NCBI GenBank assembly: GCA_030429765.1
Contig: JAUIER010000013.1
Location: 8,759-72,758 of the forward strand
From: a bacterium
GTDB lineage: Bacteria > Omnitrophota > Gorgyraeia > Zapsychrales > Zapsychraceae
Direction of reading: 5' to 3'
Length of the DNA: 64,000 bases
Shown here: positions 12,480 through 26,360 of the stretch, one piece after another
How the letters are laid out: each line of letters opens with the position of its first letter
Numbering within the stretch: position 1 is the first letter of the stretch
Program-made: the position numbers and the translations under genes
Notes under the pieces: generated by a model
Seen by the model: only the letters and a program-made list of their open reading frames with translations
What the model was told of the DNA's origin: nothing
Databases searched by the model: none

Positions 12480-13100
12480 ATGGCTCACACATTACCTGAC
12501 CTACCATACGCGTTCGATGCACTGGAACCGCACATCGACGCGAAAACGATGGAAATCCATCACGGCAAACATCATGCCGGATATGTTGCGAAACTCAATG
12601 CCGCGATTGAAGGGACGGATCTGGCGTCCAAATCAATCGAGGACTTGATCAGTAACTTGTCGTCAGTGGATGAGGCCAAGCGCGGGGCCGTCCGTAACAA
12701 CGGAGGCGGTCATTACAATCACACGCTGTTCTGGCAAATCCTTTCACCAAAGGGCGGAGGCGAACCGTCGGGGGAACTCGCCGAGGCCATCAACGCCGCG
12801 TTCGGATCTTTCGCGGACTTCAAACAAAAATTCTCTGACGCAGCCGCCACACGCTTTGGCAGCGGTTGGGCCTGGCTTTGTGTCAAAGACGGCAAACTCT
12901 GTGTTTGCTCCACTCCTAATCAGGATAATCCGCTGATGGACATCGCGGAATGCCCTGGCACCCCCATCGCTGGACTTGATGTCTGGGAACACGCGTATTA
13001 TCTGAATTATCAGAATCGCCGACCCGATTATATAGCCGCATTTTTTAACGTCATCAACTGGGATAAAGTGGCGGAATTGTACGCCGCGGCCCGGGGCTAA
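12480..13100 (+). CDS. sod: Fe/Mn superoxide dismutase
   Basis: [28 protein letters not shown] and the C-terminal DVWEHAYY motif. Confidence 0.9.
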
Positions 13101-13132
13101 ACCGGTCCTAAATCCCTGAAAATACACACCGT

Positions 13133-13183
13133 CCCGGGAAGAATGCCGATTTTTCCCGGGGCGGGAATATTTTGATTTTTTGT
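13133..13183 (+). terminator. Probable rho-independent terminator after sod
   Basis: 8-bp stem CCCGGGAA/TTCCCGGG followed by T-rich runs. Confidence 0.45.
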
Positions 13184-13225
13184 CGCAAAAAAGTCGAAAT
13201 TTCGCTTGATTTCTGTTTAAATCGG

Positions 13226-13276
13226 AATACTATATATTGTATTGCTAGCGTCCATTTTCTCCACATATAGTGTTAT
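13226..13276. promoter_or_regulatory. Two candidate NrdR boxes upstream of nrdA
   Basis: Two AT-rich 16-bp partial palindromes (ATACTATATATTGTAT and CACATATAGTGTTATT) about three helical turns apart. They resemble the NrdR-box consensus acaCwAtATaTwGtgt. Confidence 0.4.
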
Positions 13277-13397
13277 TGAGCCAAAATCAGTAACCAATTG
13301 ATTTCAGACAATTTATAAAAAATTTGCCTGCCAAAACCGCAAATTTTTCATAGATTTGAGCAAATTTTTAACATTCAAAACGATAAAGGAGTCCTGA

Positions 13398-16300
13398 ATG
13401 TCCCATGAAACTTCAACAAGTTTGGAGATGAAAGTTTACAAACGAAATGGACAGGTGGTGGCCTTCAATGAAGCCCGCATCCAGAGCGCGATTGGCAATG
13501 CATTAAAAGAGCAGAAGAAGCTGCCGCGCGAGGCCGAGTTGTCCATTGTTGATGCCCACAACGCCAAGCACATCACGGATTGTGTGTTGTCGGTGCTGAC
13601 CGAGCGATGGTTGGAGAACGGTCAGTTAACGGTTGAAGAGATTCAGGACGAGGTGATCCGTCAGCTGTACGAGAACGGATTCAAGGAAGCGGCCGAACTG
13701 TACGCGAATTACCGCAAGCAGCATGCCGCGCGCCGGACATTATTTGAGTTGTATACGACGACCAAGCGCAACGGCAAGGTCGTATCATTCAAACCGGAAA
13801 AGATCACCATGGCCGTGTCGATGGCGTTTCGCGCGCACAATCACGGCATCCTTTCCCAGGACGTGCTTCAGCACGCCAAGAAGATTTCCGATATTGTCAT
13901 CAAAGAGATCCTCGAGAAGTGGCCGGAAGGCAAATGTGTGCATATCGAAGAGATCCAGGACATGGTCGAGAAAAACCTGATGACATCAGGTTTTCATGAA
14001 GTCGCCCGCAGTTATATCATCTACCGCGAGAAACGCAGCAAGGCCCGCCGCGCGCAGATCCTCGAAAAGACCGCGACCGAAACATTTGAATGGGCCAAGC
14101 ATCTCAAGTACAAGACCAACTCAGGCGAAGAAAAGCCGTTAAATCTCGAGGAGATCCGCTTTCAGATCGACACCTGCTGTCAGGGACTGGAAAATGTCGA
14201 GACCGACAAGATCCTCGAAGAGTCGCTCAAAAACTATTACAACGGCATCACCGAGGCCAAGATGGAGGCATCCAACATCATGGCCGCCAAATCCTTCCTC
14301 GAGCGCGAGCCGAATTACACCTACGCGGCATCGCGACTGTTACTCTTGAAACAATATCGTGAGGCCCTGAACCGGCCGGTGAGCTTTGAAGAGATCAAGA
14401 CCGAGTACTCAACCTATTTTGCCCGTTACATTCACCGGGCGGTGGATCTGGAATTATTGACACCGGATCTGCTTCAGTTTGATCTCAAGAAGCTTGGCGC
14501 GGCGATTCAGCCCAAACGTGATTTCAAGTTCCGTTATCTGGGATTGCAGACGCTGTATGACCGTTACTTTATCCACTGGGAAGAGGTTCGTCTAGAGCTT
14601 CCGCAGATCTTCTGGATGCGTGTGGCCATGGGCTTGGCGCAACGCGAAGGCGCCCGGAAGAACGAGCGCGCGATCGAGTTTTATAACATGCTATCAACCT
14701 TCCGATTTATGTCCTCGACGCCGACCTTGTTCAACGCCGGAACCCGCCATCCGCAATTGTCTTCGTGCTATCTGACCACCATCAATGACGATTTACAGCA
14801 CATCTTCAAGTGTATTCAGGACGACGCGATGCTGTCTAAATGGAGCGGCGGTCTGGGCAATGACTGGACCAATGTCCGTTCGATGGGATCGCGCATCAAG
14901 GGCACCAACGGCAAGAGCCAGGGGGTCATTCCATTCTTGAAGGTCGCCAATGATACGGCCCTCGCCGTCAATCAAGGTGGAAAACGTAAAGGCGCGATGT
15001 GTGCCTACCTTGAGGTATGGCATATGGATATCGAAGACTTTCTGGAGCTGTGGAAGAACACCGGTGATGATCGTCGGCGAACGCATGACATGCACACCGC
15101 CAGCTGGATCCCGGATCTGTTCATGAAGCGTCTTAAAGAAAACGGTAACTGGACGCTGTTCAGTCCCAACGAAGTGCCGGACCTGCATCACATTTACGGG
15201 CAGGAATTTGAACGCCGTTATGAAGAGTACGAGCGCCGGGCGCAGGCAGGCAAGATGAAGCAGTTCAAGACCATGCCGGCCGTGGATCTGTGGCGCAAAA
15301 TGCTCAACATGCTATTCGAAACAGGCCATCCATGGATCACCTGGAAGGACCCATCCAACGTGCGGTCACCTCAGAGTCATGTGGGAACAGTTCATAGCTC
15401 AAATCTGTGTACCGAAATTTTGCTGAACACGTCGTCAGAAGAGACAGCTGTATGTAACCTCGGATCAGTAAACCTGGCCGAGCACGTGTCGCTGGACGGC
15501 GGGATCAATCATCGCAAGCTGAAGTCCACGGTGCGAACGGCGGTCCGTATGCTGGATAATGTGATCGACATCAATTATTACCCGACATCCGAGGCCAAGC
15601 GCGCCAATCAGCGTCACCGCCCGATCGGGTTGGGGATTATGGGCTTCCAGGACGCGCTGTACATCCAGAACTGGAGCTATGCCTCGCGCGAAGCAGTGGA
15701 ATTTGCCGACGCGAGCATGGAGGCGGTATCCTACTATGCCATTCTGGCCTCGATCGAACTGGCCGCGGAAAAGGGCATTTACTCCTCGTACCGCGGGTCC
15801 AAATGGGATCAAGGGCTGCTGCCGATTGACACGCTGGCGCTATTGGAAAAAGAGCGCGGCGGTTATGTCAATATCGATCCCAAGACACGCATGGATTGGG
15901 ACGTCGTTCGCGGCGAACTCAAAAAGAAAGGCATCCGCAACAGTCTGGTGATGGCCATCGCCCCGACAGCGACCATCGGGAACATCGTCGGTGTCACGGC
16001 CTCCATCGAGCCGTTGTACAAGAATATCTTTGTGAAGAGTAATCTGTCCGGTGAGTTTACCGTGCTCAACGAATTTCTCGTCAATGACCTCAAGGCAGCC
16101 GGCCTGTGGGATCGGGAGATGATCGACGACTTGAAATACTTCGATGGAAGTATTCAGGAGATCGAGCGAATCCCCGAAGACCTCAAGCGCAAATACGCGA
16201 CGGCCTTTGAGATCGATTACGAATGGATCGTTGAATCCGCGGCCCGTCGTCAGAAGTGGATTGATATGGGACAATCACTCAATCTCTATCAGGCCAAACC

Positions 16301-16942: not shown

Positions 16943-17989
16943 ATGTCAGAACCATGCATGAAAATGTCAAAACAGCGGGTCACCGCGGACGACAAAAAGA
17001 TCATTAACAACGACCGCACCGTCGACTGTAACCAGCTCGTGCCGATCAAGTACAAATGGGCCTGGAATTTTTATCTAGACGGCTGCGCCAATCACTGGAT
17101 GCCGCAGGAAGTCTCGATGCAGCGCGATATCGAGCAGTGGAAGAATCCCGACGGGTTCACCGATGCCGAGCGTCACGTGATCAAACGTACATTCGGTTTT
17201 TTTGCCACGGCCGAAACGCTGGTCGGCAACAACCTGGTGCTGGCGGTCTACAAGATCATCGACAACCCTGAAGCGCGTCAGTATCTGCTGCGTCAGGCCT
17301 TCGAGGAAGCGATTCATGTGCATGCGTTTCAGTACATCGTGCAGTCGCTGTCGCTGGATGAAGGGGAGATGTTCAATATGTACCGCGAGGTCGAGGCGAT
17401 CTACAATAAGGACGAGTACGCGATGAGCTGCACCGACGGGATCCTTGATCCGGACCTGGACACACGCAGCACCGAAGGTCTGCAGAAGTTTATCAAGAAC
17501 CTCGTGGGATTCTACGGGATCACCGAAGGGATCTTTTTCTACAGCGGGTTTGTAACGATGTTATCATTCGGACGACAGAACCGTCTGCCGGGGACATGCG
17601 AGCAGATCCAGTATATCCTGCGGGACGAAAGCATTCACATGAACTTCGGTCTGCAATTGATCAACGCGATCATCGACGAGAATCCGCAGGTCTGGACACA
17701 GGCGTTCAAGGATGAGATCGTTGAGTTTATCCGTAACGCCGTCGAGCTTGAGCACAAATACGCCGAAGAGTGTCTGCCGGACGGGATTCTGGGTCTGAAT
17801 ACAGATCTGCTCAAAGAATACATTCAGTACATCGCCGACCGCCGTTTCGAACGGCTTCGTCTGCCCAAACAATACGGCTCCGACAATCCATTCCCGTGGA
17901 TGAGCGAGATCATCGATCTCAAGAAAGAGAAGAACTTCTTCGAGACAAGGGTGACGGAGTATCAGACAGGTGGCGCGTTGGAGTGGTAA
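16943..17989 (+). CDS. nrdB: Ribonucleoside-diphosphate reductase beta subunit (di-iron/tyrosyl radical)
   Basis: R2 ferritin-like motifs (FFATAETLV, EEAIHVHAF, DESIHMNFG) and an AAGGAG RBS before the ATG at 16943. Confidence 0.9.
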   Translation: MSEPCMKMSKQRVTADDKKIINNDRTVDCNQLVPIKYKWAWNFYLDGCANHWMPQEVSMQRDIEQWKNPDGFTDAERHVIKRTFGFFATAETLVGNNLVLAVYKIIDNPEARQYLLRQAFEEAIHVHAFQYIVQSLSLDEGEMFNMYREVEAIYNKDEYAMSCTDGILDPDLDTRSTEGLQKFIKNLVGFYGITEGIFFYSGFVTMLSFGRQNRLPGTCEQIQYILRDESIHMNFGLQLINAIIDENPQVWTQAFKDEIVEFIRNAVELEHKYAEECLPDGILGLNTDLLKEYIQYIADRRFERLRLPKQYGSDNPFPWMSEIIDLKKEKNFFETRVTEYQTGGALEW

Positions 17990-18056
17990 AGAGTTAGTTT
18001 GTTTTTAGTGATTCGAGTTTCGAAGTAAATAGATAAAATGGAAACAGTTTTTAAAA

Positions 18057-18086
18057 GCCTCCGTGTCGATCGCGGAGGCTTTTTTC
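18057..18086 (+). terminator. Rho-independent terminator ending the nrdAB operon
   Basis: GCCTCCG-tgtcgatcg-CGGAGGC stem followed by TTTTTT. Confidence 0.7.
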
Positions 18087-18101
18087 CATGAGGAATCCAA
18101 C

Positions 18102-19160
18102 ATGATGTGTAAAAATTGTGGTTCGCAAAATGATACAAATAACAACCGGTGTGGTAATTGTGGAGAATCATTATCTTCTGATTCGAGAATTGATATTGAA
18201 AGAAAATTGGAAAGATTGCAGGATTTAGGTGATAGTATTGACAAGAGGATAAAATTTTTTGACAAGAACAAGGAACTTATAGAATTAAATATTGATGAAA
18301 GTTTTCGATCAATATTTAAGAAAAAGTATATAAATATAATTGGCCTTATTACTTTCATGTTCACAATTGGTGTCGTGATATTAACAATGTTTGGCTGGAA
18401 TAACTTTAAAAGTTGGTTAAGACTAGAGTCACAAGAATATATTAGACAGTTTGGTCGGGACGAAGTAGAAAAGCAGTTTGAAAGCAAAAATATTCGTGCT
18501 TTGGTAATTGAAGTCGCGGAAGATAAAATAACAAATGAGCTTAGTCCTTCGTTTGAAGATGTAAAAGGGCAGTTAGACGAGAAAGTAAAAGATTTTGACT
18601 TTGATATTAGGGAAGAATTAAGAACTACAAAGAATGATATCAGTAATCAGATTAGAATACTTAAAGAACGTAATGAAGTGGAGGCTTTAGTAGATTTAGC
18701 AATTGTTGAAGGTGACAGAGATGCTTATAATAAAATTAGTAAAGAGATAGAAAGATATTCGGATCACGCAGGTAGTACTACAAATTTCAAAAAGGTACGG
18801 CTTTATGGTTCTGCACTGACTAGAATAAAGTCATTTTATACGTCCGGGCATAGAAGACCTTACTTTAATTTAAATTTTGATCCAAATAGTATTACCGTAA
18901 AAGAATTACTGAAAATTGCTGGTAATGATACTGATTGGGTTAACAGAAGTGCTTCAGTCTATACCCTGGGATTTAAAAAAAATGAGGAAGTTGTTGAAAC
19001 TTTAATAAACGTTTGCAAGAAGGATGCTCGTCTGGATGTTGTTGAGGAGTCCATGACTTCACTGATGAGTTTACTTCAGGTGCAAATGGATGTGTTTGAT
19101 TGTGGCTGGGCTGAGTCATATTGGAGGTTAAATAGGGCGAAGGTTATCGAAAAATGGTAG
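18102..19160 (+). CDS. Hypothetical membrane protein: N-terminal Zn-ribbon (CxxC-X11-CxxC), one TM helix, long coiled-coil region, C-terminal HEAT/PBS-lyase-like repeats
   Basis: Strongly AT-rich gene unlike its flanks. N-terminus MMCKNCGSQNDTNNNRCGNCGE, a TM segment IIGLITFMFTIGVVILTMFGW, a charged coiled-coil, and a C-terminal DTDWVNRSASVYTLG...DARLDVVEESMTSL repeat. The start in the ORF track at 18063 lies inside the nrdB terminator, so the ATG at 18102 with a GAGGA RBS is preferred. Confidence 0.5.
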   Translation: MMCKNCGSQNDTNNNRCGNCGESLSSDSRIDIERKLERLQDLGDSIDKRIKFFDKNKELIELNIDESFRSIFKKKYINIIGLITFMFTIGVVILTMFGWNNFKSWLRLESQEYIRQFGRDEVEKQFESKNIRALVIEVAEDKITNELSPSFEDVKGQLDEKVKDFDFDIREELRTTKNDISNQIRILKERNEVEALVDLAIVEGDRDAYNKISKEIERYSDHAGSTTNFKKVRLYGSALTRIKSFYTSGHRRPYFNLNFDPNSITVKELLKIAGNDTDWVNRSASVYTLGFKKNEEVVETLINVCKKDARLDVVEESMTSLMSLLQVQMDVFDCGWAESYWRLNRAKVIEKW

Positions 19161-19663
19161 TTTTTACTGTCAGAATTATCGATATACTACTCATACAATG
19201 GGCTAAATTAATATGTTTGATTTATTTTCTAGCTCTATGTTTGGCTTTTTCTTCTCTGGCTCACGCCGATGTCAAAGAAGCCGAGCAGTTTTTTCTGAAG
19301 TACCAAGAGTTGTGGAATTCATTCGACATCGAAGCTGCTGATCTATATACGGATAATACTAAATTTTTGGGAAAACGTGTCTATCCTAACGGTGTTGTTC
19401 GATCTATAGATTTGCCAGCTCCGTATCTAAAGGACTTAATTCGAAACACGATGCCCCTGGCACGATTGAAAAATGATAGGACGGAGTATAGTAATGTAAA
19501 GTACGAGATTACAGAGTTAGGTGTCAAAATTTCTGCCGATCGCTATTCGACGATGAAATGCTTTACTGATCCAACATTCTATATCATTATCAAAAAAATT
19601 GATGGAGAGTACAAAATCGTCGAGTCATATGGAACGTCGCAACCGCAGTCGAATTGTCAGTAA
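19154..19663 (+). CDS. Hypothetical secreted protein, NTF2/SnoaL-like fold suspected
   Basis: Second AT-rich gene of the islet. It has a hydrophobic N-terminal signal ending AHA and a roughly 130-aa mature domain. The ATG overlaps the previous stop (ATGGTAG). Confidence 0.45.
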   Translation: MVVFTVRIIDILLIQWAKLICLIYFLALCLAFSSLAHADVKEAEQFFLKYQELWNSFDIEAADLYTDNTKFLGKRVYPNGVVRSIDLPAPYLKDLIRNTMPLARLKNDRTEYSNVKYEITELGVKISADRYSTMKCFTDPTFYIIIKKIDGEYKIVESYGTSQPQSNCQ

Positions 19664-19706
19664 CTGTAATCATTTCTTACAGGAACAGATCTGGTAAAAG
19701 TACAGC

Positions 19707-19871
19707 ATGCGAATCATTATTTATACTTTGCTAGCTATCTTAGCCTTCGTCGTGCTGATCACAGAATTATGGCACTACGATCCAGCAGAACCGGAGATAG
19801 GCGATAGTTATTCATCCGGCTACACCAATGTGATCAAACGGATGGCTCCGCTTGAGGACGAGGGATATTAG
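19707..19871 (+). CDS. Possible 54-aa single-TM micro-protein (missing from the ORF track because of its length)
   Basis: ATG at 19707, then MRIIIYTLLAILAFVVLITELW followed by an acidic tail. No homolog recognised. Confidence 0.25.
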   Translation: MRIIIYTLLAILAFVVLITELWHYDPAEPEIGDSYSSGYTNVIKRMAPLEDEGY

Positions 19872-19881
19872 AGGGCTCAAT

Positions 19882-20754
19882 GTGAAACGCCGCACGCGTA
19901 TTGTTATTTATGTAGGCATAGTACTGATGGTTTATGTCGGCCTGTTGCTGACCAATGTGATACCGTCGATGCTGTGGCGGGGGATTCGCGGGCCTCGGGG
20001 CGACGAACGGCGGATCGTGACGGTCCGGATCGAGTCGGACTATCAGCGTACACCTACCCGGATCAGGATTCTTGCCCCCAAGAATATGGAAGCAGGCCGG
20101 CGTTATCCGGTGTTGTATCTGTTGCCCTCAGTACCGCAGATCCTCGACCCGTGGTGGAACAGTCCGTTGATCGAGATCATCCGCTTCGATGTCGCCGATC
20201 GGCATCAGGTGATCTGTGTCGCGCCGACATACAGCGATATGCCGTGGTACGCCGATCATCCCACCGATCCCAAGATTCGTCAGGAAAGCTATCTGATCAA
20301 GGAGATTATTCCGTATATCGATGCCAATTATCCAACCATGGCCGAAGGGCGGGGGCGGTATCTGCTTGGGTACAGTAAATCCGGAACGGGCGCGTTCACT
20401 CTATTATTGCGGCATCCCGATCTGTTTTATCGGGCGCTCTCATGGGATGCCCCGATGTTCTTTCCGTTCAAGGAAATCCCCGGCTCTCAGCTCACCAAGA
20501 TCTACGGCACGCCGGAAAACTTCCGGCACTATCAATTACCCATCCTGTTCCGCCGGCGTTCTGCCGACTTTACAGGACCCGACCCGCGATTTATACTAAT
20601 GGGGTTCAGCGAGAATCCGATGGCGATCCATCGCGTGCACGAATACATGAACGCGTACAACATCACCCATAAATACGACAACACCACGCAAACCCGTCAC
20701 AACTGGCACAGCGGCTGGTTTGAGCGGGCGATCGGGCACTTATTTGACGAATGA
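19882..20754 (+). CDS. Putative esterase (alpha/beta hydrolase, esterase-D/enterochelin esterase-like), membrane-anchored or secreted
   Basis: PF00756-like pattern (YPVLYLLP ... RYLLGYSKSGTGAF ... SWDAPMF) and an N-terminal hydrophobic segment. The start is uncertain; the track ORF begins at a TTG at 19852. Confidence 0.55.
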   Translation: MKRRTRIVIYVGIVLMVYVGLLLTNVIPSMLWRGIRGPRGDERRIVTVRIESDYQRTPTRIRILAPKNMEAGRRYPVLYLLPSVPQILDPWWNSPLIEIIRFDVADRHQVICVAPTYSDMPWYADHPTDPKIRQESYLIKEIIPYIDANYPTMAEGRGRYLLGYSKSGTGAFTLLLRHPDLFYRALSWDAPMFFPFKEIPGSQLTKIYGTPENFRHYQLPILFRRRSADFTGPDPRFILMGFSENPMAIHRVHEYMNAYNITHKYDNTTQTRHNWHSGWFERAIGHLFDE

Positions 20755-21122
20755 TGGAATCCCAAAAATCACGATATAAGTTATCTATTTTTCTGATCCT
20801 TGGAATGATGACGCTTATACACCCGCAGCCAGCCAAGGCGGCCAATGAATGCATCCGCATCAATAAGAAAGAAAGTATGATCGCGGTGGTCGAGCGGATC
20901 AATCGTCAGCAGACCTGGTTGTATGTGATCAATGAGCAGACCGGCCGGCCGGAACGCTTTTACGCGCCGCGCGGGTATCTGAAAGAACTTGAGCCCGGCG
21001 ACCGTGTAAGGATCTATTACATCTGCGGCAGTCAGACCCTGCTGTCCGTCCGTCACATGACCCCGGTTGAGTTTGATGCCGAGGCGTCGAATCGGGGGTA
21101 TATCATGGGTGGACCCAAATAA
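20751..21122 (+). CDS. Hypothetical small secreted protein
   Basis: Signal-peptide-like N-terminus (LSIFLILGMMTLIHPQPAKA). The start overlaps the esterase stop. Confidence 0.4.
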   Translation: MMESQKSRYKLSIFLILGMMTLIHPQPAKAANECIRINKKESMIAVVERINRQQTWLYVINEQTGRPERFYAPRGYLKELEPGDRVRIYYICGSQTLLSVRHMTPVEFDAEASNRGYIMGGPK

Positions 21123-21150
21123 TGCTGTTAGTATGATATAAAATTAGTAA

Positions 21151-21367
21151 AAGGACCTGGCTTGAGTTAGGCGGAGTCGGGTTGAAGTATTAATTGGAAG
21201 CATAGAAAATAATCGTAGTCATCAATTATGGAAAGGAGGTCGGAGTCGCCTTGAAGCATGTCGACTTTAGCCTTCTAAGATTAACATGAATAAGGACTTT
21301 GCTTGAGATGGGCGGAGTCGCGTTGAGGCATCGCGACTCCTACTGGCGAAAAGCAGAGCTTTTCGCC
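21151..21367 (+). repeat. Three degenerate direct repeats at about 70-nt period (core GGAGTCG-N-TTGAAG/TTGAGG), ending in two adjacent perfect 9-bp-stem hairpins
   Basis: Repeat copies AAGGACcTgGCTTGAGtTaGGCGGAGTCGgGTTGAAG at 21151 and AAGGACtTTGCTTGAGaTgGGCGGAGTCGcGTTGAGG at 21292, with a shorter GGAGTCGCCTTGAAGCATGTCGAC between them. Hairpins GGAGTCGCG-ttgaggcat-CGCGACTCC (21314-21340) and GGCGAAAAG-cagag-CTTTTCGCC (21345-21367). Confidence 0.5.
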
Positions 21368-21433
21368 TTGGAACCTTCAAATATTTTAAAGATCAAGAGC
21401 CTGACGAGTGACTGGTATGACAAGGATATGGTC

Positions 21434-21688
21434 ATGCTGCACGCGTGTTTTCAATTGCTGGAGGACTGTGTCGAACAGGAGAACCTGCTCGACGGATTCA
21501 CCGACTGGGATCAGACCGAGGAGTTTCAGGAGGCCTACAAGGATCTCAAGGAGTTGTACGAGTGGTGGCAGATCCGTAAGCAGTTGATCACCATGGAAAA
21601 GTACGATGAGCTCGAAGAAGAAAACTACGACGAGGACACCCGCCGGCTGCAGCAGCTGATCCGCTGGCGGCATATGCTCTGGACTTAG
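21434..21688 (+). CDS. Hypothetical acidic protein (about 85 aa)
   Basis: An AAGGA RBS sits 7 nt before the ATG at 21434. The longer track ORF (from 21299) would translate through the two strong hairpins, so the shorter start is preferred. Confidence 0.4.
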   Translation: MLHACFQLLEDCVEQENLLDGFTDWDQTEEFQEAYKDLKELYEWWQIRKQLITMEKYDELEEENYDEDTRRLQQLIRWRHMLWT

Positions 21689-21696
21689 TTACAATA

Positions 21697-22218
21697 ATGA
21701 AATCAGATCTAAAGACACAGATCATTGCAATATTTGAAGAACATCGCGAAAAGCCCGAAGACGATTACAATCCCGGGCATTTCCTGGATTTTCTGATGCC
21801 GGACCCGCCAGCGCGGCGGGCGGTGATGAATTCCTTTGCGGGACTCAGACGTTACAATGCCTTTGTCGATGCCGTGCAGGAAGAACGCGGCGTGTATTTT
21901 TCGCAAAAGGACCGCGACGCGCATTACAGTCTGGATGCCTTTTGTGAGCGCGTTAAGGCCCTGCAGAATTCCCCCAAGTCATCCCTTCAATCGCTCAACA
22001 ACGCCCTCAAGCGCCGGCCCAACTGGAATTTTATGATCCTGGTCAATGTGATTGCTCTCAGTATTATCGTCGCCCTACGGCAGCATCCGTTCGTCGCCGC
22101 CGTGCTGGGCCTGATCCTGACCTTTTTCAATTATCGGCTGTACCGGTTTCACCGGCATGAACGTGACTATCTGGTCCGGCTCAATGAACAGATCAAGGCC
22201 GCCGCATCCGGCACATGA
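21697..22218 (+). CDS. Hypothetical membrane protein (two C-terminal TM helices)
   Basis: Hydrophilic N-terminal domain followed by FMILVNVIALSIIVAL and FVAAVLGLILTFF TM segments. Confidence 0.45.
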   Translation: MKSDLKTQIIAIFEEHREKPEDDYNPGHFLDFLMPDPPARRAVMNSFAGLRRYNAFVDAVQEERGVYFSQKDRDAHYSLDAFCERVKALQNSPKSSLQSLNNALKRRPNWNFMILVNVIALSIIVALRQHPFVAAVLGLILTFFNYRLYRFHRHERDYLVRLNEQIKAAASGT

Positions 22219-22315
22219 TTACAAATCTAATTGGGTTTTGTAATTAACAATCCCCCCGCCATCCAGTATAATCAAGAGAAACCAAGTCTGAGACCAATTA
22301 ATCAAAGGAGATCGT

Positions 22316-22630
22316 ATGATCACAACGAGTATTGAATCGGTTCCGGGACGCAAGATCGTGGAACAGTACGGGATCGTGCAGGGAAGTACCGTACGGGCCA
22401 AAAACGTCGGGGTGGACTGTGTGGCCGGCTGTCAGAATACGTTTGGGGGCGAGCTCAAGGGATATTCACAGCTGCTCGAAGAATCGCGGGCCGAGGCGCT
22501 TGATCGCATGATCCAGCAGGCCGAGCAAAAAGGGGCGAATGCGGTGATCAATGTCCGCTTCGGAACGTCAACCATCACCCAGGGCGCGTCCGAGATCCTG
22601 GCCTATGGAACGGCCGTTCTCGTACAATAG
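22316..22630 (+). CDS. YbjQ/UPF0145 (DUF74) family protein
   Basis: 104 aa. SVPGRKIVEQYGIVQGSTVRAKNVG...ANAVINVRF is characteristic of YbjQ. Confidence 0.8.
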   Translation: MITTSIESVPGRKIVEQYGIVQGSTVRAKNVGVDCVAGCQNTFGGELKGYSQLLEESRAEALDRMIQQAEQKGANAVINVRFGTSTITQGASEILAYGTAVLVQ

Positions 22631-22639
22631 GAGGTCCGG

Positions 22640-23104
22640 ATGGAAAATTTAATTGGACTGATTTTCACCGTCGGGCTGATCGTTGTCGCATACTTTGTGG
22701 GCAAGACGATTGAGAACCGGCACTTTGAGGCGCTGAAGGCGCGCGAGCGTGAATTTCTGGATCTGCCGAGCCTCACGACGCAGCATTCGTATGACGAGGA
22801 AGGCATACAGGACTGCCGTCTGGTCTACGGGAATGTGGTGATCTCCGGCGACTATTTCAAAATGGTGCTCGCGGCGCTGTTGAAATTTTTTGGCGGGCGC
22901 ATTGTTGGATATGAATCGTTGATTGACCGGGCCCGTCGGGAGGCGATCCTGCGCATGCAGGCGGAGGCCAGGCAGTTCGGCGCGGACGCGGTGATCAACA
23001 CCCGTTTTGAGATGAGCAAACTCGATGCCATGACGCAGAATCAGGGAACCGGCATGTTTGAGATCCTGGTGTACGGCACGGCGATTAAGGTCAATCATGG
23101 CTAA
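22640..23104 (+). CDS. YbjQ/UPF0145-like protein with N-terminal TM anchor
   Basis: TM segment LIGLIFTVGLIVVAYFV followed by a YbjQ-like core (ADAVINTRFE...ILVYGTAIKV). Confidence 0.7.
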   Translation: MENLIGLIFTVGLIVVAYFVGKTIENRHFEALKAREREFLDLPSLTTQHSYDEEGIQDCRLVYGNVVISGDYFKMVLAALLKFFGGRIVGYESLIDRARREAILRMQAEARQFGADAVINTRFEMSKLDAMTQNQGTGMFEILVYGTAIKVNHG

Positions 23105-23996
23105 GTATGTCCCCCGCGAGACAACCGATAATGTCAACGTGTCGCGTGACAATCCGCTCGGTGTTTTTATCAAGGCCCTGATCGGGTTATCCGCGCTGAT
23201 GGCGATCACCTTTGTGGTGCTGGTGACATTGTCGGAGGTGTTTATCCGGTTTATGCCGGAGCGGGTCAATTTTGCCCTGGCCAAGATTATCTCTGAGAGA
23301 ATCGATACGCCGGAGCATCTCGAGGCGGAGCGTGAACGCATTCAGCAGATCCTCAATCAGGCGCTGGCGCAGACACGCTTCGAGGGCGATGAGTTCCGGC
23401 TGGAAATCCTTGAGACCGACGAGAAAAACGCGATGGCCTTTCCCGGGCGGACGATCGCGATCACCACGGAATTGCTCAAAGAATTAAAGTATGAAAACGA
23501 ATTGGTGATGATCCTCGGGCATGAGATCGGTCATTATCACAACAATGATCATCTGCGCTCCATGAGCCGGGCCGGCATCCTGATGGGGCTGGTGGGGTTG
23601 CTTGAGATCGGCGGGGCGGGCAGCGCGTCGAGTGTGATCAGCGGCACGACCAATCTGTTTTTCGGCCAGTATTCCCGGCATCAGGAGACCATGGCCGATG
23701 AATTTGGTCTGACGGTGCTGGATCAATACTACGGTCATGTCGACGGCGCCGTCAATACGTTTGAGGTGTTACGACAGGCCAACGAAAAAATGCTGACGCT
23801 GAACGGAATCCTGTCGACGCATCCGATCACCGATCAGCGGATGGAGCATTTAGAAAAATTGATTACGCAAATGGAATTGACGGATGAATCCGACGGATTG
23901 ATCCCGTTTGAGTTTAACCCCGAACCGCCTGACGATGAGGAGCCGGAAGATGACAGCGACGATGAAGAGCGTTCAGCCGACGATCAAACCGCTTAA
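23097..23996 (+). CDS. M48-family Zn metallopeptidase (HtpX/Ste24-like), membrane-anchored, acidic C-terminal tail
   Basis: HEIGH motif (LGHEIGHYHNND), a downstream ETMADEFG, and one N-terminal TM segment. The start overlaps the YbjQ-2 stop by 8 nt. Confidence 0.8.
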   Translation: MAKYVPRETTDNVNVSRDNPLGVFIKALIGLSALMAITFVVLVTLSEVFIRFMPERVNFALAKIISERIDTPEHLEAERERIQQILNQALAQTRFEGDEFRLEILETDEKNAMAFPGRTIAITTELLKELKYENELVMILGHEIGHYHNNDHLRSMSRAGILMGLVGLLEIGGAGSASSVISGTTNLFFGQYSRHQETMADEFGLTVLDQYYGHVDGAVNTFEVLRQANEKMLTLNGILSTHPITDQRMEHLEKLITQMELTDESDGLIPFEFNPEPPDDEEPEDDSDDEERSADDQTA

Positions 23997-24015
23997 TCCG
24001 CTTAAGGCGTGGTGG

Positions 24016-24576
24016 ATGGAGCGGGTGCTGTGGTGGCGCAGTTTTTGGCCGGTGATGTTCGCGCACAAACCTTTATGCGATCGATTTCACACGCATACGA
24101 TCCGCGTTGGACGGACCCATGTGTGCCGCAGCTGCGCGATTTTGTATGTATCGATGGCCTTATCTGTCATGTTCTTTGTGGTGTTGATGCAAGGACATAC
24201 TCTCCCTATCGAGGGAATGGTCGGGATAGCGGGGCTGACCATGGTTTTATCCTTTCCACCACTATATAAAAATCTGCCGCGAATCATTAAGGATGGAGTT
24301 CGCGCGTTGTTGGGTGTGTCAATCGCGGGAACGATCATGCTGGCGGTTGACGGTCAATGGCCATGGGCCGCGGGCATGGCGGTGGGGCTGTGGGGCGCCA
24401 AGTTGTTGTTTCAGATGTTTCGCGCGCGGCGTTCGGCCTCGGCCTGCGACAGCTGTCCGGAGTATCGGCAAAATCAGATCTGTTCAGGGTATCGTCTTAA
24501 GGCCCGACGGATGAGGATCTATGAACGCGTCCTGACACAGAAGATCCTGCGGTATCAAAGGTTCAGCGAGTCCTGA
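24016..24576 (+). CDS. DUF2085-like Cys-rich membrane protein
   Basis: HKPLCDRF...VCRSCAILY matches the DUF2085 pattern (HxxPxRsf...vCaRCtGiy). Multiple TM helices, with a C-terminal CDSCPE...ICSG motif. An alternative start is at 23959. Confidence 0.5.
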   Translation: MERVLWWRSFWPVMFAHKPLCDRFHTHTIRVGRTHVCRSCAILYVSMALSVMFFVVLMQGHTLPIEGMVGIAGLTMVLSFPPLYKNLPRIIKDGVRALLGVSIAGTIMLAVDGQWPWAAGMAVGLWGAKLLFQMFRARRSASACDSCPEYRQNQICSGYRLKARRMRIYERVLTQKILRYQRFSES

Positions 24577-24602
24577 TTTTTTTTTGACGTTGTTCGTCGA
24601 TT

Positions 24603-24631
24603 TTGACAATGTCGCCTGATTCACCTATACT
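24603..24631 (+). promoter_or_regulatory. Near-consensus sigma70 promoter (TTGACA-N17-TATACT)
   Basis: Hexamers and spacing read directly from the sequence. It lies about 40 nt upstream of the 24670 gene. Confidence 0.45.
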
Positions 24632-24669
24632 AAAGATCGTTATTCACATCACCATCGGGAGGCGCATCT

Positions 24670-25365
24670 ATGATCACGCAGCGAATCAAATTCTTGCTTT
24701 TTATCGGCATGGCCGTCATGTCGATTCATCCATCCGTCGTTGAGGCGAAGATCGGCGATTCGGCCTTTCGGCTGGTCGACAATCCCTTTATTCAACAATA
24801 CAACTTTAGACGTACCACCGACGAGAAACGCCTGGATGGCGAAGAGGTGCTGCTCTACACGGCCCGCGGGAGTATGCTGGAGATCATCATCGATGCCAAC
24901 CGCACTATCCGTCAGCAATCGCTCACGACGATTTATAAATTCGCGGACAATACCATCCCGCCGATGATCGTCAGCTATATCGACGACGCCCGGGGCTTTG
25001 CCGATGGCAAGACGGAGCCGGTGGCTGAGCTGCTTGAGAAAGTGCAAAATCATCAGCGCGCGCGGATGCGGATTTCAGAACTTCATCGGCTTGAGGCGGA
25101 ATTGGAGACAGGCGCTGAGTACGCGGCCAACAGCGGTCTGCTCACGTTAACGGTGTATCCGGCCGAGGGGGTAAAGTTGGGCGTCCATAAGAAGGCGTCT
25201 TCGTCCCCGCTGATCCGTACCGGCGTCAGGACCATTTATCTACAGAACGGACGGACCTTGACCGGCGAGATCCTTGAAGAGAGCGCGACGCATTACACGG
25301 TCAACGCCTTTGACGGCACCATCCAGATGAGCTTCGACAAGTCCGAAGTCCTCCGCATCGAATAA
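24670..25365 (+). CDS. Hypothetical secreted protein
   Basis: Signal peptide (FLLFIGMAVMSIHPSVVEA) followed by a roughly 200-aa domain of unknown function. Confidence 0.5.
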   Translation: MITQRIKFLLFIGMAVMSIHPSVVEAKIGDSAFRLVDNPFIQQYNFRRTTDEKRLDGEEVLLYTARGSMLEIIIDANRTIRQQSLTTIYKFADNTIPPMIVSYIDDARGFADGKTEPVAELLEKVQNHQRARMRISELHRLEAELETGAEYAANSGLLTLTVYPAEGVKLGVHKKASSSPLIRTGVRTIYLQNGRTLTGEILEESATHYTVNAFDGTIQMSFDKSEVLRIE

Positions 25366-25508
25366 TTGGTGTCAGAACTCCCCAAACCGAATATTTGCAG
25401 ACATTTACAAATAAATTCCTGCGCCGAGATTTTTTGAGTCTAGATCATAAAATGAATTATAGCTTAAGTGATTGGTATATATAGTTTTAGCGAGTTCTGA
25501 CACCAATT
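25364..25508. mobile_element. MITE-like element: perfect 17-bp terminal inverted repeats (AATTGGTGTCAGAACTC) flanking a 111-bp AT-rich core
   Basis: The left arm is 25364-25380 and overlaps the upstream stop codon. The right arm is 25492-25508 and is its exact reverse complement. Alternatively this is a long-range terminator stem. Confidence 0.35.
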
Positions 25509-25535
25509 GTTTAAAAAGGCGGGGTTGTTTTTGAC

Positions 25536-25564
25536 ATCGGGGGATATCGGTTCTAGAATCAGGT
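25536..25564 (+). promoter_or_regulatory. Near-consensus sigma70 promoter (TTGACA-N17-TAGAAT) for the PLDc_N micro-protein gene
   Basis: Read directly from the sequence. Confidence 0.45.
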
Positions 25565-25596
25565 ATAGTGATGTCATTTAACCAAGGAGGGAAGCG

Positions 25597-25761
25597 ATGG
25601 GTTTTATTTTAGGTCCGGTTGTTTTTATTTTAGATATTCTCGCGCTGGTGGATTGCTGGAAGAGTGGGATGGATCAGAACAAGAAGATCTTGTGGACGAT
25701 TCTCATCTTGATTCTGCCATTGGTCGGATTGATCCTGTATTATCTGGTGGGAAAAAAGTAA
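25597..25761 (+). CDS. PLDc_N-family small membrane protein (54 aa)
   Basis: MGFILGPVVFILDILALVDCWKSG...KILWTILILILPLVGLILYYLVGKK matches the phospholipase-D-nuclease N-terminal micro-protein family. AAGGAGG RBS. The gene is below the ORF-track length cutoff. Confidence 0.55.
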   Translation: MGFILGPVVFILDILALVDCWKSGMDQNKKILWTILILILPLVGLILYYLVGKK

Positions 25762-25782
25762 CACGCGCTGAATTGATTGACA

Positions 25783-25812
25783 GGGCCTCCAGGGATGGAG
25801 GCCCTTTTTTGT
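25783..25812 (+). terminator. Rho-independent terminator
   Basis: GGGCCTCC-agggat-GGAGGCCC followed by TTTTTT. Confidence 0.75.
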
Positions 25813-25900
25813 TGCGTTAGCTGACGCAAAATATTTCGCATTCGAGCGCGTTTCGTGTATACTAGCTGGACTGACACAACAAACAAGAGGAGAACACACG

Positions 25901-26326
25901 ATGCCGTGCAGCGACAGCTCATCCAGTATGGTAATCCAGCTGGATCATGAGGAAAAATTTGTCGGTTTTGAATACGCGAAGATCACCTGCGGCCGGGAGA
26001 TCACCGGATCCACCGGTCTCAATGAATATTTTAAGGGATGGGAATTATCGCGCATTATCGATTGTCCTTACAATCAAATCTGCACCGCTCTGGATGTTCA
26101 GGAAGAAGAGAATCAATATATCCTGTATCTGGAATGGGACGTGCTTCGCGCTGGACTCGCGCTGTATCTGGGAATCGACGATCCGCACATCGACACCGAC
26201 CGATGTTTAATCACCTCTATTGAACACGCCGATAAGGGCATTGAGATCGCTCAGGTGGTCTTGCCCCCTAAAGAAATGCCCAAAATCCTGCCATGCAGTC
26301 TCGGTGATACCGATCCGAATCAGTAA
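25901..26326 (+). CDS. Hypothetical protein
   Basis: An ORF with an upstream TATACT -10 element. No family recognised. Confidence 0.35.
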   Translation: MPCSDSSSSMVIQLDHEEKFVGFEYAKITCGREITGSTGLNEYFKGWELSRIIDCPYNQICTALDVQEEENQYILYLEWDVLRAGLALYLGIDDPHIDTDRCLITSIEHADKGIEIAQVVLPPKEMPKILPCSLGDTDPNQ

Positions 26327-26360
26327 ACAAATAGAAAAGTAGGGAAGGCGAGACAGGTGT

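What the first reader, a model, noticed from the sequence alone, without database searches (positions are those of the whole stretch)
18057..19700. AT-rich two-gene islet inserted right after the nrdAB terminator: Zn-ribbon/TM/coiled-coil/HEAT-like protein plus secreted NTF2-like protein
About 1.6 kb here has visibly much lower G+C than everything around it (roughly one-third G+C by eye versus more than half elsewhere) and Lys/Asn/Ile-rich codon usage, which suggests recent horizontal acquisition. It encodes two overlapping genes (ATGGTAG junction) with no recognisable enzymatic domain. The first protein has a double CxxC zinc ribbon, a single TM helix, a long charged coiled-coil and C-terminal HEAT/PBS-like repeats. 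The second is a small secreted protein. No integrase, tRNA or obvious direct repeats flank the islet. Compact foreign two-gene cassettes of this architecture (membrane sensor-like protein plus a small partner) are the kind of locus where uncharacterised defence, abortive-infection or toxin/immunity modules are found.
Basis: partly seen in the sequence, partly recalled or inferred. Interest (0 to 1): 0.65.

Follow-up and report, generated by a model that had tools for sequence, protein, structure and literature searches.

The report
AT-rich foreign two-gene envelope-protein islet
A 1.7-kb stretch of clearly foreign, AT-rich DNA just behind the ribonucleotide-reductase genes encodes a membrane-anchored HEAT-repeat protein from a rare, unnamed, horizontally moving family plus an exported protein with no detectable relatives; its function is unknown, and a protective (anti-phage or anti-toxin) role is plausible but unproven.

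Summary
Window 17990-19706 has GC 0.31-0.39 against 0.51 overall. Its two genes have GC3 of 0.28 and 0.38, against 0.51-0.78 for every other ORF of at least 150 aa; it is the only such stretch in 64 kb. Gene 1 (18102-19160) encodes a CxxC-X10-CxxC zinc ribbon, one TM helix, a helical stalk and a C-terminal helical-repeat domain holding two PBS-lyase-type HEAT-like repeats. It is not an orphan: exhaustive HMMER finds 138 distant relatives (22-34% identity) with the same architecture, matched by no curated family model beyond the generic HEAT_2 repeat. Wherever host context is visible, these relatives are AT-rich, non-syntenic, mostly solo genes. Four of about eleven contexts lie within three genes of PADLOC hits. 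Gene 2 (19154-19663), coupled by the ATGGTAG overlap, is an exported protein with no detectable relative; its NTF2-like fold could not be tested. The closest related genome joins nrdB directly to the gene found here at 25.9 kb, so the site is a variable hotspot. Horizontal acquisition is well supported. A defence role remains guilt by association: nothing in this window matches a defence system, and gene 2 is not a conserved partner. Interest is moderate.

The parts
18053..18085 (+). nrdB intrinsic terminator: hairpin AAAAGCCTCCG-N9-CGGAGGCTTTT followed by a T-run. Native in position, and marks the left edge of the foreign coding DNA.
   Evidence: Inverted repeat I9; stem of 12-13 pairs ending 18 nt before the gene-1 ATG; analogous hairpin plus T-run after nrdB in L004 and L007. 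The consensus scanner missed it because the loop is 9 nt.
17990..19706 (.). AT-rich islet (GC about 0.31-0.41), running from the nrdB stop codon to just before the small ORF at 19707.
   Evidence: fine profile; the ORF at 19707-19873 already has GC3 0.53.
18102..19160 (+). Gene 1 (P1, 352 aa): Zn-ribbon, TM helix, helical stalk and a HEAT-like C-terminal domain. A divergent member of an unnamed family. SD GAGGA at 18090-18094.
18108..18161 (+). CxxC-X10-CxxC zinc-ribbon motif (residues 3-20), predicted cytoplasmic.
   Evidence: Sequence; Pfam Zn_Ribbon_1 E 2.9e-4 and DZR E 1.6e-3, both below the gathering score; 39 of 113 TM-bearing family members have at least two CxxC motifs before the TM segment.
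18330..18398 (+). Single transmembrane helix (residues about 77-99).
   Evidence: Kyte-Doolittle 19-residue maximum of 2.52 starting at residue 79. K+R count is 4 on the N side and 2 on the C side here, and across the family the N side exceeds the C side in 74 members against 20, predicting N-in/C-out.
18399..18716 (+). Long charged helical stalk (residues about 100-205), probably a coiled coil.
   Evidence: AF2 helices 26-127, 129-146 and 148-203; aligned with the variable-length helical region of the family.
18717..19157 (+). Conserved C-terminal helical-repeat domain (residues about 206-352). It contains two PBS-lyase-type HEAT-like repeats (Pfam HEAT_2 at residues 267-322) and the family's terminal W-W helix.
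19154..19663 (+). Gene 2 (P2, 169 aa): exported protein with no detectable relatives, translationally coupled to gene 1 (ATGGTAG overlap). N-terminal hydrophobic signal ending in ...SSLAHA/DV (residues 1-38); the mature part is about 131 aa with two Cys.
   Evidence: sequence; no relatives; only Pfam DUF6438 at E 0.012. The signal peptide and cleavage site are read from the sequence, not predicted with a dedicated tool.
17990..25900 (.). Wider lineage-variable segment between nrdB and the conserved 'MPCSDSS...' gene / ilvN-ilvB block. The islet is its first 1.7 kb.
   Evidence: L004 has nrdB, about 95 nt, then the ortholog of window 25901-26326, then ilvN/ilvB. L006 carries an HNH gene at this site, and L007 an unrelated AT-rich gene.

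Best explanation
The islet is horizontally acquired accessory DNA, lodged directly behind the nrdAB terminator at a position that varies among related genomes.

Gene 1 makes a non-enzymatic, bitopic inner-membrane protein. A small zinc ribbon sits in the cytoplasm, one helix spans the membrane, and a long helical stalk holds a HEAT-like protein-binding domain in the periplasm. Gene 2, translated in step with gene 1, delivers a small protein to the same compartment.

The most likely function is a binding-based envelope guard used in biological conflict. The stalk-mounted HEAT domain, alone or with P2, would capture a foreign protein arriving in the envelope, most probably part of a phage's entry machinery, and so block or report the invasion. 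The cytoplasmic ribbon (an FHA domain in one relative) would be the anchoring or signalling end.

Shown: foreign composition, absence from the nearest relative, domain architecture, the existence and scattered AT-rich distribution of the family, and defence-type neighbours of some homologs.

Inferred: topology, co-localisation of P1 and P2, expression by read-through of the nrdB terminator, and the protective function itself.

My sub-probabilities: horizontal acquisition of an accessory cassette about 0.9; architecture as described about 0.85; any conflict-related role about 0.45; specifically anti-phage about 0.3.
For: - Foreign origin: GC3 0.28 and 0.38 against 0.51-0.78 elsewhere, the only such stretch in 64 kb. 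nrdB is directly adjacent to the ortholog of window 25901-26326 in the closest relative L004, and different inserts occupy the same site in L006 and L007.
- Architecture.
- Family behaviour: 138 relatives at 22-34% identity. All ten 90%-identity clusters examined hold only one or two sequences, from Omnitrophota and Nitrospirota MAGs as well as this Planctomycetales-like lineage.
- Family composition: the gene is AT-rich relative to its flanks in every locus with host context. P0019 has GC3 0.35 against 0.70-0.81; P0020 0.30 against 0.71-0.79; P0014 GC 0.32 against 0.47-0.52; P0006 0.27 against 0.48; P0011 0.27 against about 0.39; P0010 0.63 against 0.72-0.79.
- Family neighbours: positions are non-syntenic, often a solo gene wedged between housekeeping genes. 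Four of about eleven contexts have a PADLOC hit within one to three genes: PDC-S32 at E 2e-90, PDC-M30A/B at E 3e-113, a TIR-like effector domain at E 1e-7, and PD-Lambda-2_B at E 2.5e-35 next to a HigB-like gene. PD-lambda-2 is experimentally validated (PMC9519451). Another context has a phage-integrase fragment.
- No catalytic domain appears in any library, so action by binding is the parsimonious reading.
- An FHA-TM-stalk-HEAT variant and a thioredoxin-fused variant fit a cytoplasmic adaptor end and an extracytoplasmic C-terminus.
- Both products carry export or anchor signals, and the genes overlap.
Against: - No functional data exist.
- Neither protein, none of the ten family members tested, and none of the ten neighbouring genes in this window convincingly matches a known or candidate defence model.
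- At least four contexts, this one included, show no recognised defence or mobile-element gene nearby.
- The family was not found on phage, plasmid or IMG/VR viral contigs, so its vehicle is unknown.
- P2 is unique to this locus, so a P1-P2 partnership has no comparative support.
- Topology rests only on the positive-inside rule.
- With the start codon 17 nt after a terminator and no promoter-like site upstream, the cassette may be poorly expressed.
Confidence: 0.35

Rival explanations
1. Orphan immunity genes against periplasm-acting interbacterial toxins. P1 would be a membrane-tethered HEAT-type immunity protein, and P2 a small exported immunity protein (NTF2-like if the first reader is right). 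They would be kept without the cognate toxin and protect against the T6SS, CDI or Rhs effectors of neighbouring bacteria by stoichiometric binding.
For: HEAT-repeat ('Imm-HEAT') and NTF2-fold ('Imm-NTF2', 'Imm-NTF2-2') proteins are catalogued immunity domains of polymorphic toxin systems, with HEAT-repeat immunity proteins recorded in planctomycetes (PMC3482391). Both products are predicted to be extracytoplasmic. Non-enzymatic binders, AT-rich composition, rapid divergence and scattered distribution are also typical of orphan immunity genes.
Against: No toxin, Rhs, T6SS or CDI gene lies next to any of the about eleven family contexts. P2 gives no Pfam hit to Imm-NTF2 or any NTF2/SnoaL family at E <= 1, and its fold is untested. 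The Imm-HEAT examples in the paper are linked to Tox-REase-7, a nuclease-type toxin by its name (and so presumably cytoplasmic), and to Ntox34, an all-alpha toxin whose activity the passages retrieved do not give. A conserved long stalk plus a cytoplasmic Zn-ribbon or FHA module is unnecessary for a simple immunity protein.
Confidence: 0.12
2. An ordinary, non-conflict accessory envelope protein. This would be a horizontally spread membrane scaffold or signalling adaptor (cytoplasmic Zn-ribbon or FHA, TM helix, periplasmic HEAT domain) that organises some envelope process such as secretion, adhesion, redox or cell-wall work, with P2 as incidental lineage-specific cargo.
For: FHA-TM-periplasmic-domain and Zn-ribbon-TM architectures are common in signalling and envelope scaffolds (established knowledge). 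One relative has an FHA domain and another a thioredoxin-like domain. At least four contexts show no recognised defence or mobile-element gene nearby. There is no match to defence models.
Against: No conserved partner or operon would define such a process: every context differs. Singleton clusters, low identity, AT-rich composition in all hosts, and adjacency to defence or TA genes in four or five contexts fit conflict or accessory dynamics better than a physiological scaffold.
Confidence: 0.3
3. Functionally inert foreign DNA: a recently acquired, poorly expressed or silenced fragment that persists by chance behind the nrdAB terminator and contributes nothing to the host.
For: The start codon lies 17 nt after an intrinsic terminator, with no promoter-like site upstream. 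The composition is unameliorated. P1 deviates from several family-conserved motifs, for example SLMSLLQ in place of SFxxxTG. P2 has no relatives.
Against: Both ORFs are intact, which is very unlikely by chance in this composition (5e-7 and 8e-14). They have Shine-Dalgarno-like sequences and a coupling overlap. P1 keeps the invariant family residues, and its C-terminal domain models with pLDDT above 90. The identical sequence was assembled independently from run SRR24442552.
Confidence: 0.13
4. Native genes with unusual composition (no horizontal transfer), for instance AT-richness imposed by the Lys/Asn/Ile/Glu-rich coiled-coil protein sequence.
For: P1 is rich in K, N, I and E, which lowers GC at codon positions 1 and 2.
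Against: The drop is largest at synonymous third positions (GC3 0.28 and 0.38 against 0.51-0.78), and it also covers gene 2 and the intergenic DNA. The region is absent from the nearest relative. Homologs are non-syntenic.
Confidence: 0.03

Closest known systems
PBS-lyase-type HEAT-like repeat proteins (Pfam HEAT_2/HEAT_PBS: CpcE/F bilin lyases, E. coli YibA, deoxyhypusine hydroxylase, the designed alphaRep scaffolds)
   Different: Only about 60 of the roughly 170 conserved C-terminal residues are canonical repeats; the flanking LKxRN...LAD...GDR helices and the terminal WW..NK helix are family-specific. The known members named here are soluble proteins. This protein is membrane-anchored on a long stalk, with a predicted extracytoplasmic location and an N-terminal Zn ribbon. 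No lyase or hydroxylase active site is implied.
Imm-HEAT and Imm-NTF2 immunity proteins of polymorphic toxin systems (Zhang et al. 2012, PMC3482391)
   Same: They are non-enzymatic binders built from HEAT repeats or an NTF2 fold, rapidly evolving and horizontally scattered, with HEAT-repeat immunity proteins recorded in planctomycetes.
   Different: No adjacent toxin occurs in any context. P2 shows no sequence match to the Imm-NTF2 families. P1 has a TM helix, stalk and Zn ribbon, none of which the retrieved Imm-HEAT table entries (fold given only as all-alpha) mention.
Single-gene membrane-anchored phage-exclusion or abortive-infection proteins, and PADLOC 'phage defence candidates' (PDC; Payne et al. 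preprint 10.1101/2024.01.29.577857)
   Same: A small accessory gene without an enzymatic domain, membrane-located, AT-rich, scattered, and in four homolog contexts adjacent to PDC-S32, PDC-M30, a TIR-like gene or a PD-Lambda-2-like pair.
   Different: No sequence similarity to any PADLOC model. The family is not on phage or prophage records searched. No phenotype is known. The resemblance is by context and general character only.
Zn-finger/TM anti-sigma factors (zf-HC2 type) and other Zn-ribbon-TM signalling proteins
   Same: An N-terminal cytoplasmic Cys-rich metal-binding module, a single TM helix and an extracytoplasmic C-terminal domain.
   Different: The motif is CxxC-X10-CxxC, a ribbon, not the HxxxCxxC of zf-HC2. 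There is no Pfam zf-HC2 hit and no sigma-factor gene adjacent, here or in any homolog context. Most family members lack the ribbon altogether.

Membership tests
Unnamed [Zn-ribbon/FHA]-TM-stalk-HEAT family (defined here hits) | Significant full-database sequence similarity across the stalk and C-terminal domain | tested here: met
   phmmer against 1.84 billion representatives: 138 hits at E <= 1e-3 and 15 at E <= 1e-10, aligned over query residues about 110-350.
Unnamed [Zn-ribbon/FHA]-TM-stalk-HEAT family (defined here hits) | Shared architecture: N-proximal TM helix, helical stalk, conserved C-terminal domain ending in the WW..NK helix | tested here: met
   Alignment A1, with invariant L269, L289, V313 and W341 and a near-invariant RN...D...W..R. 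113 of 138 members have a TM segment and 39 have at least two CxxC motifs before it. P1 deviates at the SFxxxTG motif.
Pfam HEAT_2 (PF13646) repeat | Score at or above the gathering threshold (27.7 bits) | tested here: not met
   P1 scores 20 bits (E 8.4e-4), below the cut-off. The best family member reaches E 1.1e-10, and structure supports the repeat. So it is HEAT-like by profile and fold, but not a formal Pfam member on its own score.
Pfam zinc-ribbon families (Zn_Ribbon_1, DZR) | Score at or above the gathering threshold; four Cys in a CxxC...CxxC arrangement | tested here: inconclusive
   The motif C3-x2-C6-x10-C17-x2-C20 is present. Scores of 21 and 19 bits fall below the cut-offs of 25 and 27.3. 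AF2 pLDDT is only 55-60 over these residues. Metal binding was not tested.
Known or candidate anti-phage defence systems (PADLOC-DB v2) | Match of the proteins to a system's component models | tested here: not met
   P1 gives only HEAT-ARM_XIII at E 0.02; P2 gives none. Ten family members give only weak partial hits over the helical stalk/TM region (best PDC-M38B at E 6e-6).
Known or candidate anti-phage defence systems (PADLOC-DB v2) | Location in a defence island (defence genes among near neighbours) | tested here: not met
   The ten neighbouring genes at 19.9-26.3 kb give no PADLOC hit. Upstream are tpx, sod and nrdAB. Four of about eleven homolog contexts do have such neighbours.
NTF2-like / SnoaL superfamily (claimed for P2) | Sequence match to an NTF2-like family model | tested here: not met
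   No NTF2, SnoaL, DUF4440 or Imm-NTF2 hit at E <= 1 in Pfam; only DUF6438 at E 0.012. Nothing in NCBIfam, PHROGs or PDB sequences.
NTF2-like / SnoaL superfamily (claimed for P2) | Alpha+beta cone fold (three helices packed on a curved sheet) | not tested
With no homologs, a single-sequence model would in any case be weak.
Polymorphic-toxin immunity loci | Adjacent toxin gene or polyimmunity array | tested here: not met
   No toxin-domain hit among the neighbours here or in homolog contexts (and the Pfam columns).
Integrative mobile element (genomic island sensu stricto) | Integrase or transposase, tRNA target, flanking direct repeats | tested here: not met
   No tRNA in 64 kb. No integrase domain in the ORFs at 18-26 kb. 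Repeats are no better than chance. The inverted repeat at 25361-25511 has no mate at the left junction.
Group II intron or other terminator-targeting structured element | Rfam-detectable RNA or a reverse transcriptase | tested here: not met
   No Rfam match at E <= 1 in 17500-26500. A hairpin directly upstream of the gene start is not seen in the ten other family loci examined.

The most novel reading that the evidence does not exclude
The [Zn-ribbon/FHA]-TM-stalk-HEAT family is a new, single-gene, envelope-level anti-phage (or anti-effector) system. It spreads between phyla as a naked AT-rich gene without any recognisable vehicle. It would sense or block invaders in the periplasm through a stalk-mounted HEAT domain, and in this genome it has recruited a lineage-specific exported co-factor (P2).
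Probability: 0.2. Interest if true: 0.7.

Novelty: new variant of a known kind. Interest (0 to 1): 0.38.

Why it matters
If the family proved protective, it would add a non-enzymatic, periplasm-facing, single-gene module to the known defence repertoire. It comes from poorly studied environmental phyla (Planctomycetota-like, Omnitrophota, Nitrospirota), where almost no defence biology has been tested. It would also illustrate how solo genes with no integrase reach sites between housekeeping genes.

As things stand, the finding is a clean example of a compositionally foreign islet at a variable post-terminator site, and it defines a previously unnamed protein family of at least 138 clusters. That is useful for annotation and as a candidate for screens, but it is not in itself surprising, because AT-rich islets of hypothetical genes are common.

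Tried and rejected
1. K-mer-seeded homology searches for P1, P2 and the family alignment returned essentially only self-hits. The family became visible only with exhaustive HMMER.
2. Single-sequence AF2 of P1 was uninformative (pLDDT 43). It used one of the two structure jobs, which left none for P2.
3. The afdb50 Foldseek library was unavailable. The PDB and BFVD Foldseek searches gave nothing at E <= 1e-3.
4. The search for related loci with the full family alignment failed for lack of a conserved stretch. With the tighter alignment A2 it found no viral contig.
5. Metagenome scans with P2 and with the downstream esterase found no relatives, so no same-species empty site could be recovered. 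The empty-site argument rests on L004 at 86% NrdB identity.
6. tblastn of P1 and P0018 against the phage and plasmid collections gave no match.
7. Flanking direct repeats: the best candidates (D1 at 19705/19892, D5 at 17801/19685) are at chance level. The idea that the small ORF at 19707 is a duplicated 5' end of the esterase gene is rejected.
8. Terminator-targeted insertion as a family-wide signature is rejected: none of the ten other family loci examined has a hairpin directly upstream.
9. Group II intron or another structured RNA: no Rfam hit.
10. A P2-like partner next to homologs: none.
11. The 26-nt inverted repeat at 25361-25511 as an element end: there is no copy at the left junction.
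Full report
OBSERVATION. The compositional anomaly is real and sharp. In 400-nt windows GC falls from about 0.52 to 0.31-0.40 between 18000 and 19799 and then returns to 0.55. Across the whole 64 kb (mean 0.513, sd 0.041 for 500-nt windows) this is the only extended run below 0.42; the other two are short intergenic stretches at 13.0-13.6 and 25.4-25.9 kb. The effect is strongest at synonymous sites. GC3 is 0.28 for gene 1 and 0.38 for gene 2, against 0.51-0.78 for every other ATG-ORF of at least 150 aa, so it is not merely a by-product of the Lys/Asn/Ile/Glu-rich protein. The two ORFs (18063/18102-19160 and 19154-19663) overlap by ATGGTAG. They are far longer than chance would leave open in such DNA (5e-7 and 8e-14).

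One correction concerns the start of gene 1. The GTG at 18063 lies inside the nrdB terminator hairpin (18053-18083, followed by a T-run to 18085). The real start is almost certainly ATG 18102, behind GAGGA at 18090-18094, which gives the 352-aa product held in the public protein collection. An identical 2.7-kb contig was assembled independently from run SRR24442552.

GENE 1. Curated libraries give only sub-threshold hits: Zn-ribbon at E 3e-4 and HEAT_2 at E 8e-4 in Pfam, and nothing in NCBIfam, PHROGs or PADLOC. Word-seeded homology search finds only the protein itself. An exhaustive phmmer run against 1.84 billion cluster representatives, however, finds 138 relatives at E <= 1e-3 (15 at E <= 1e-10). 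They share 22-34% identity, are mostly 300-370 aa long, and align over residues about 110-350.

The alignment (A1) defines a coherent architecture. There is a short N-terminus, sometimes carrying a CxxC...CxxC ribbon, then one TM helix. A conserved 'F.EP.I...VA' segment follows, then a variable helical stalk, then a conserved C-terminal domain (LKxRN..LAD.AI..GDR ... W..RA.AA..L..RKEK.VPEALL ... D..L.V.K.A..SF...TG...DVF ... WW..NK).

Of the 138 members, 113 have a clear TM segment (median start at residue 51) and 39 have at least two CxxC motifs before it. Lys+Arg is higher on the N side than on the C side of the TM segment in 74 members against 20, which predicts an N-in/C-out orientation. 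One longer relative replaces the ribbon with an FHA domain, and another adds a thioredoxin-like domain after the HEAT module.

About two-thirds of the conserved C-terminal domain, however, is family-specific. No catalytic domain is detectable.

GENE 2. The product starts with a 38-residue hydrophobic N-terminus ending in ...SSLAHA/DV, which I read as a signal peptide or signal anchor from the sequence alone. The mature part is about 131 residues and contains two Cys. No relative was found by any search: the 5.8-billion-protein collection, PDB sequences at E <= 10, metagenome and viral contig scans, and the ORFs of all loci carrying gene-1 homologs or nrdB relatives. Pfam gives only DUF6438 at E 0.012. 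The NTF2-like fold is therefore unverified.

CONTEXT IN THIS LINEAGE. NrdB's best matches (73-86% identity) are MAGs labelled uncultured Planctomycetales, plus one labelled Omnitrophota. The upstream block tpx-sod-nrdA-nrdB is syntenic in L005-L007. Downstream, the closest relative L004 has nrdB, about 95 nt with a terminator-like hairpin, and then the ortholog of the window gene at 25901-26326 ('MPCSDSSS...'), followed by ilvN/ilvB. That is the window's arrangement from 25.9 kb onward.

Hence 17990-25900 (7.9 kb) is missing in L004, and only its first 1.7 kb is AT-rich. At the same position L006 carries an HNH endonuclease gene. L007 carries an unrelated AT-rich multi-TM gene (GC3 0.26) that also starts within about 30 nt of the terminator. 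The post-nrdB site is therefore a lineage-variable hotspot.

No tRNA, integrase domain, Rfam element or above-chance flanking repeat marks the islet. None of the ten downstream genes matches PADLOC. A same-species empty site could not be found, because the lineage is too thinly sampled.

CONTEXT OF THE FAMILY. Eleven neighbourhoods were recovered. Wherever host genes are visible, the family gene is AT-richer than its flanks:
- P0019: GC3 0.35 against 0.70-0.81. A solo gene between ffh-rpsP-KH and a metallophosphatase.
- P0020: 0.30 against 0.71-0.79. A solo gene between a BamD-like gene and siroheme synthase/lpxC.
- P0014: GC 0.32 against 0.47-0.52.
- P0006: 0.27 against 0.48.
- P0011: 0.27 against about 0.39.
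- P0010: 0.63 against 0.72-0.79.

Positions are never syntenic. All ten 90%-identity clusters examined contain one or two sequences, and the named sources include Omnitrophota and Nitrospirota MAGs.

Four contexts have PADLOC hits within one to three genes:
- PDC-S32 (E 2e-90) beside P0018.
- PDC-M30A/B (E 7e-14 and 3e-113) beside P0017.
- A TIR/deoxyribosyltransferase-like 111-aa protein (E 1e-7), in a six-gene same-strand cluster whose last, overlapping gene is P0004.
- A HigB-like gene plus an HTH-M78 peptidase matching PD-Lambda-2_B (E 2.5e-35), 137 nt downstream of P0014.

PD-lambda-2 is an experimentally validated abortive-infection system (PMC9519451). The PDC entries are untested candidates (10.1101/2024.01.29.577857). 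P0010 lies near a phage-integrase fragment. The family itself matches no PADLOC model and was not found on phage, plasmid or IMG/VR records.

INTERPRETATION. Horizontal acquisition is well supported by composition, by absence from the nearest relative, and by the behaviour of the family.

What the cassette does is not established. The anatomy is a cytoplasmic adaptor-like ribbon, a TM helix, a stalk and a predicted periplasmic HEAT binding domain, plus a co-translated exported small protein and no enzyme. That points to action by binding in the envelope. Scattered, fast-diverging, AT-rich solo genes that repeatedly sit next to defence or TA genes are most often conflict genes. I therefore favour an envelope-level guard, most likely against phage entry. 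My estimates are about 0.3 for anti-phage specifically and about 0.45 for any conflict role.

The main rivals are as follows:
- A non-conflict envelope scaffold or signalling adaptor (0.30).
- Inert foreign DNA (0.13). The start codon sits 17 nt behind a terminator with no promoter-like site upstream, so expression would depend on read-through from nrdAB.
- Orphan immunity proteins against periplasm-acting toxins (0.12). HEAT and NTF2 folds are both catalogued immunity domains, with HEAT-repeat immunity proteins recorded in planctomycetes (PMC3482391).
- Native origin, which is effectively excluded.

The two-gene unit has no comparative support, because gene 2 is unique to this locus.

NOVELTY AND SCORE. 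The islet is an ordinary kind of object: a small foreign insert of hypothetical genes. Gene 1, however, reveals an uncatalogued domain architecture and family with suggestive conflict-type genomics. I rate it a new variant of a known kind, with interest 0.38. The most novel reading still open is a new single-gene periplasmic anti-phage family that spreads as naked AT-rich DNA across phyla. I give that about 0.2 probability, and it would merit about 0.7 if true.

Noticed in passing
window 17990-25900: The whole 7.9-kb segment between nrdB and the 'MPCSDSSS...' gene (25901-26326) is absent from the closest relative L004. Its normal-GC part (19.7-25.4 kb) holds a 54-aa TM ORF, an esterase (19882-20754), several unknown ORFs, two tandem YbjQ-family genes (22316-22630 and 22640-23104) and an M48 peptidase (23097-23996). 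None hits PADLOC.
   Followed up: partly
window 25361-25511: A 26-nt inverted repeat (88% complementary) encloses a 99-nt AT-rich spacer, immediately after the stop of ORF 24670-25365 and near the right edge of the variable segment. The core 17-mer occurs only at these two places in the window and not at the left junction. It could be a MITE-like relic or a regulatory palindrome.
   Followed up: partly
window 25598-25812: A small ORF (MGFILGPVVFILDILALVDCWKSG...GKK, about 54 aa) that looks by eye like a PLD-N-type small membrane protein, followed by a GC-rich hairpin plus T-run (about 25784-25812), just upstream of the conserved 25901 gene.
   Followed up: no
L006:11269-12075 and L007:7715-8563: Related genomes carry different cargo at the same post-nrdB site. 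L006 has an HNH_2 endonuclease gene. L007 has an AT-rich (GC3 0.26) multi-TM gene starting about 25 nt after the nrdB terminator. Together they suggest a recurrent insertion hotspot.
   Followed up: partly
L089:78-4839: A six-gene same-strand cluster ends with the P1-family member P0004, whose start overlaps the upstream gene. The cluster includes a 111-aa TIR/nucleoside-deoxyribosyltransferase-like protein (PADLOC TIR effector E 1e-7) and four proteins without any family match. It may be an uncharacterised multi-gene system.
   Followed up: partly
L084:8001-10613: The family member P0014 lies 137 nt upstream of a HigB-like gene plus an HTH-M78 peptidase that matches PD-Lambda-2_B nearly full-length (E 2.5e-35). 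No PD-Lambda-2 C component was identified. A subtilase and a Gp49/HTH pair follow.
   Followed up: partly
L094:4957-5724: A 255-aa gene with no family match and GC3 0.25 sits directly upstream of the family member P0011 (GC3 0.27), in a host with GC3 of about 0.39. The same pair occurs on a second contig (L095). This may be a local two-gene unit different from the P1-P2 pair.
   Followed up: no
P0107, P0043, P0037, P0090 (family relatives): Some relatives are much longer. P0107 has an N-terminal FHA domain before the TM-stalk-HEAT module. P0043 has a thioredoxin-like domain after it. P0037 (1182 aa) and P0090 (1883 aa) carry the module at the end of very long, mostly helical proteins.
   Followed up: partly
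window 13000-13400: A low-GC (0.39-0.41) intergenic region lies upstream of nrdA. No Rfam family (for example a riboswitch) is detected there or anywhere else in the 64 kb.
   Followed up: partly
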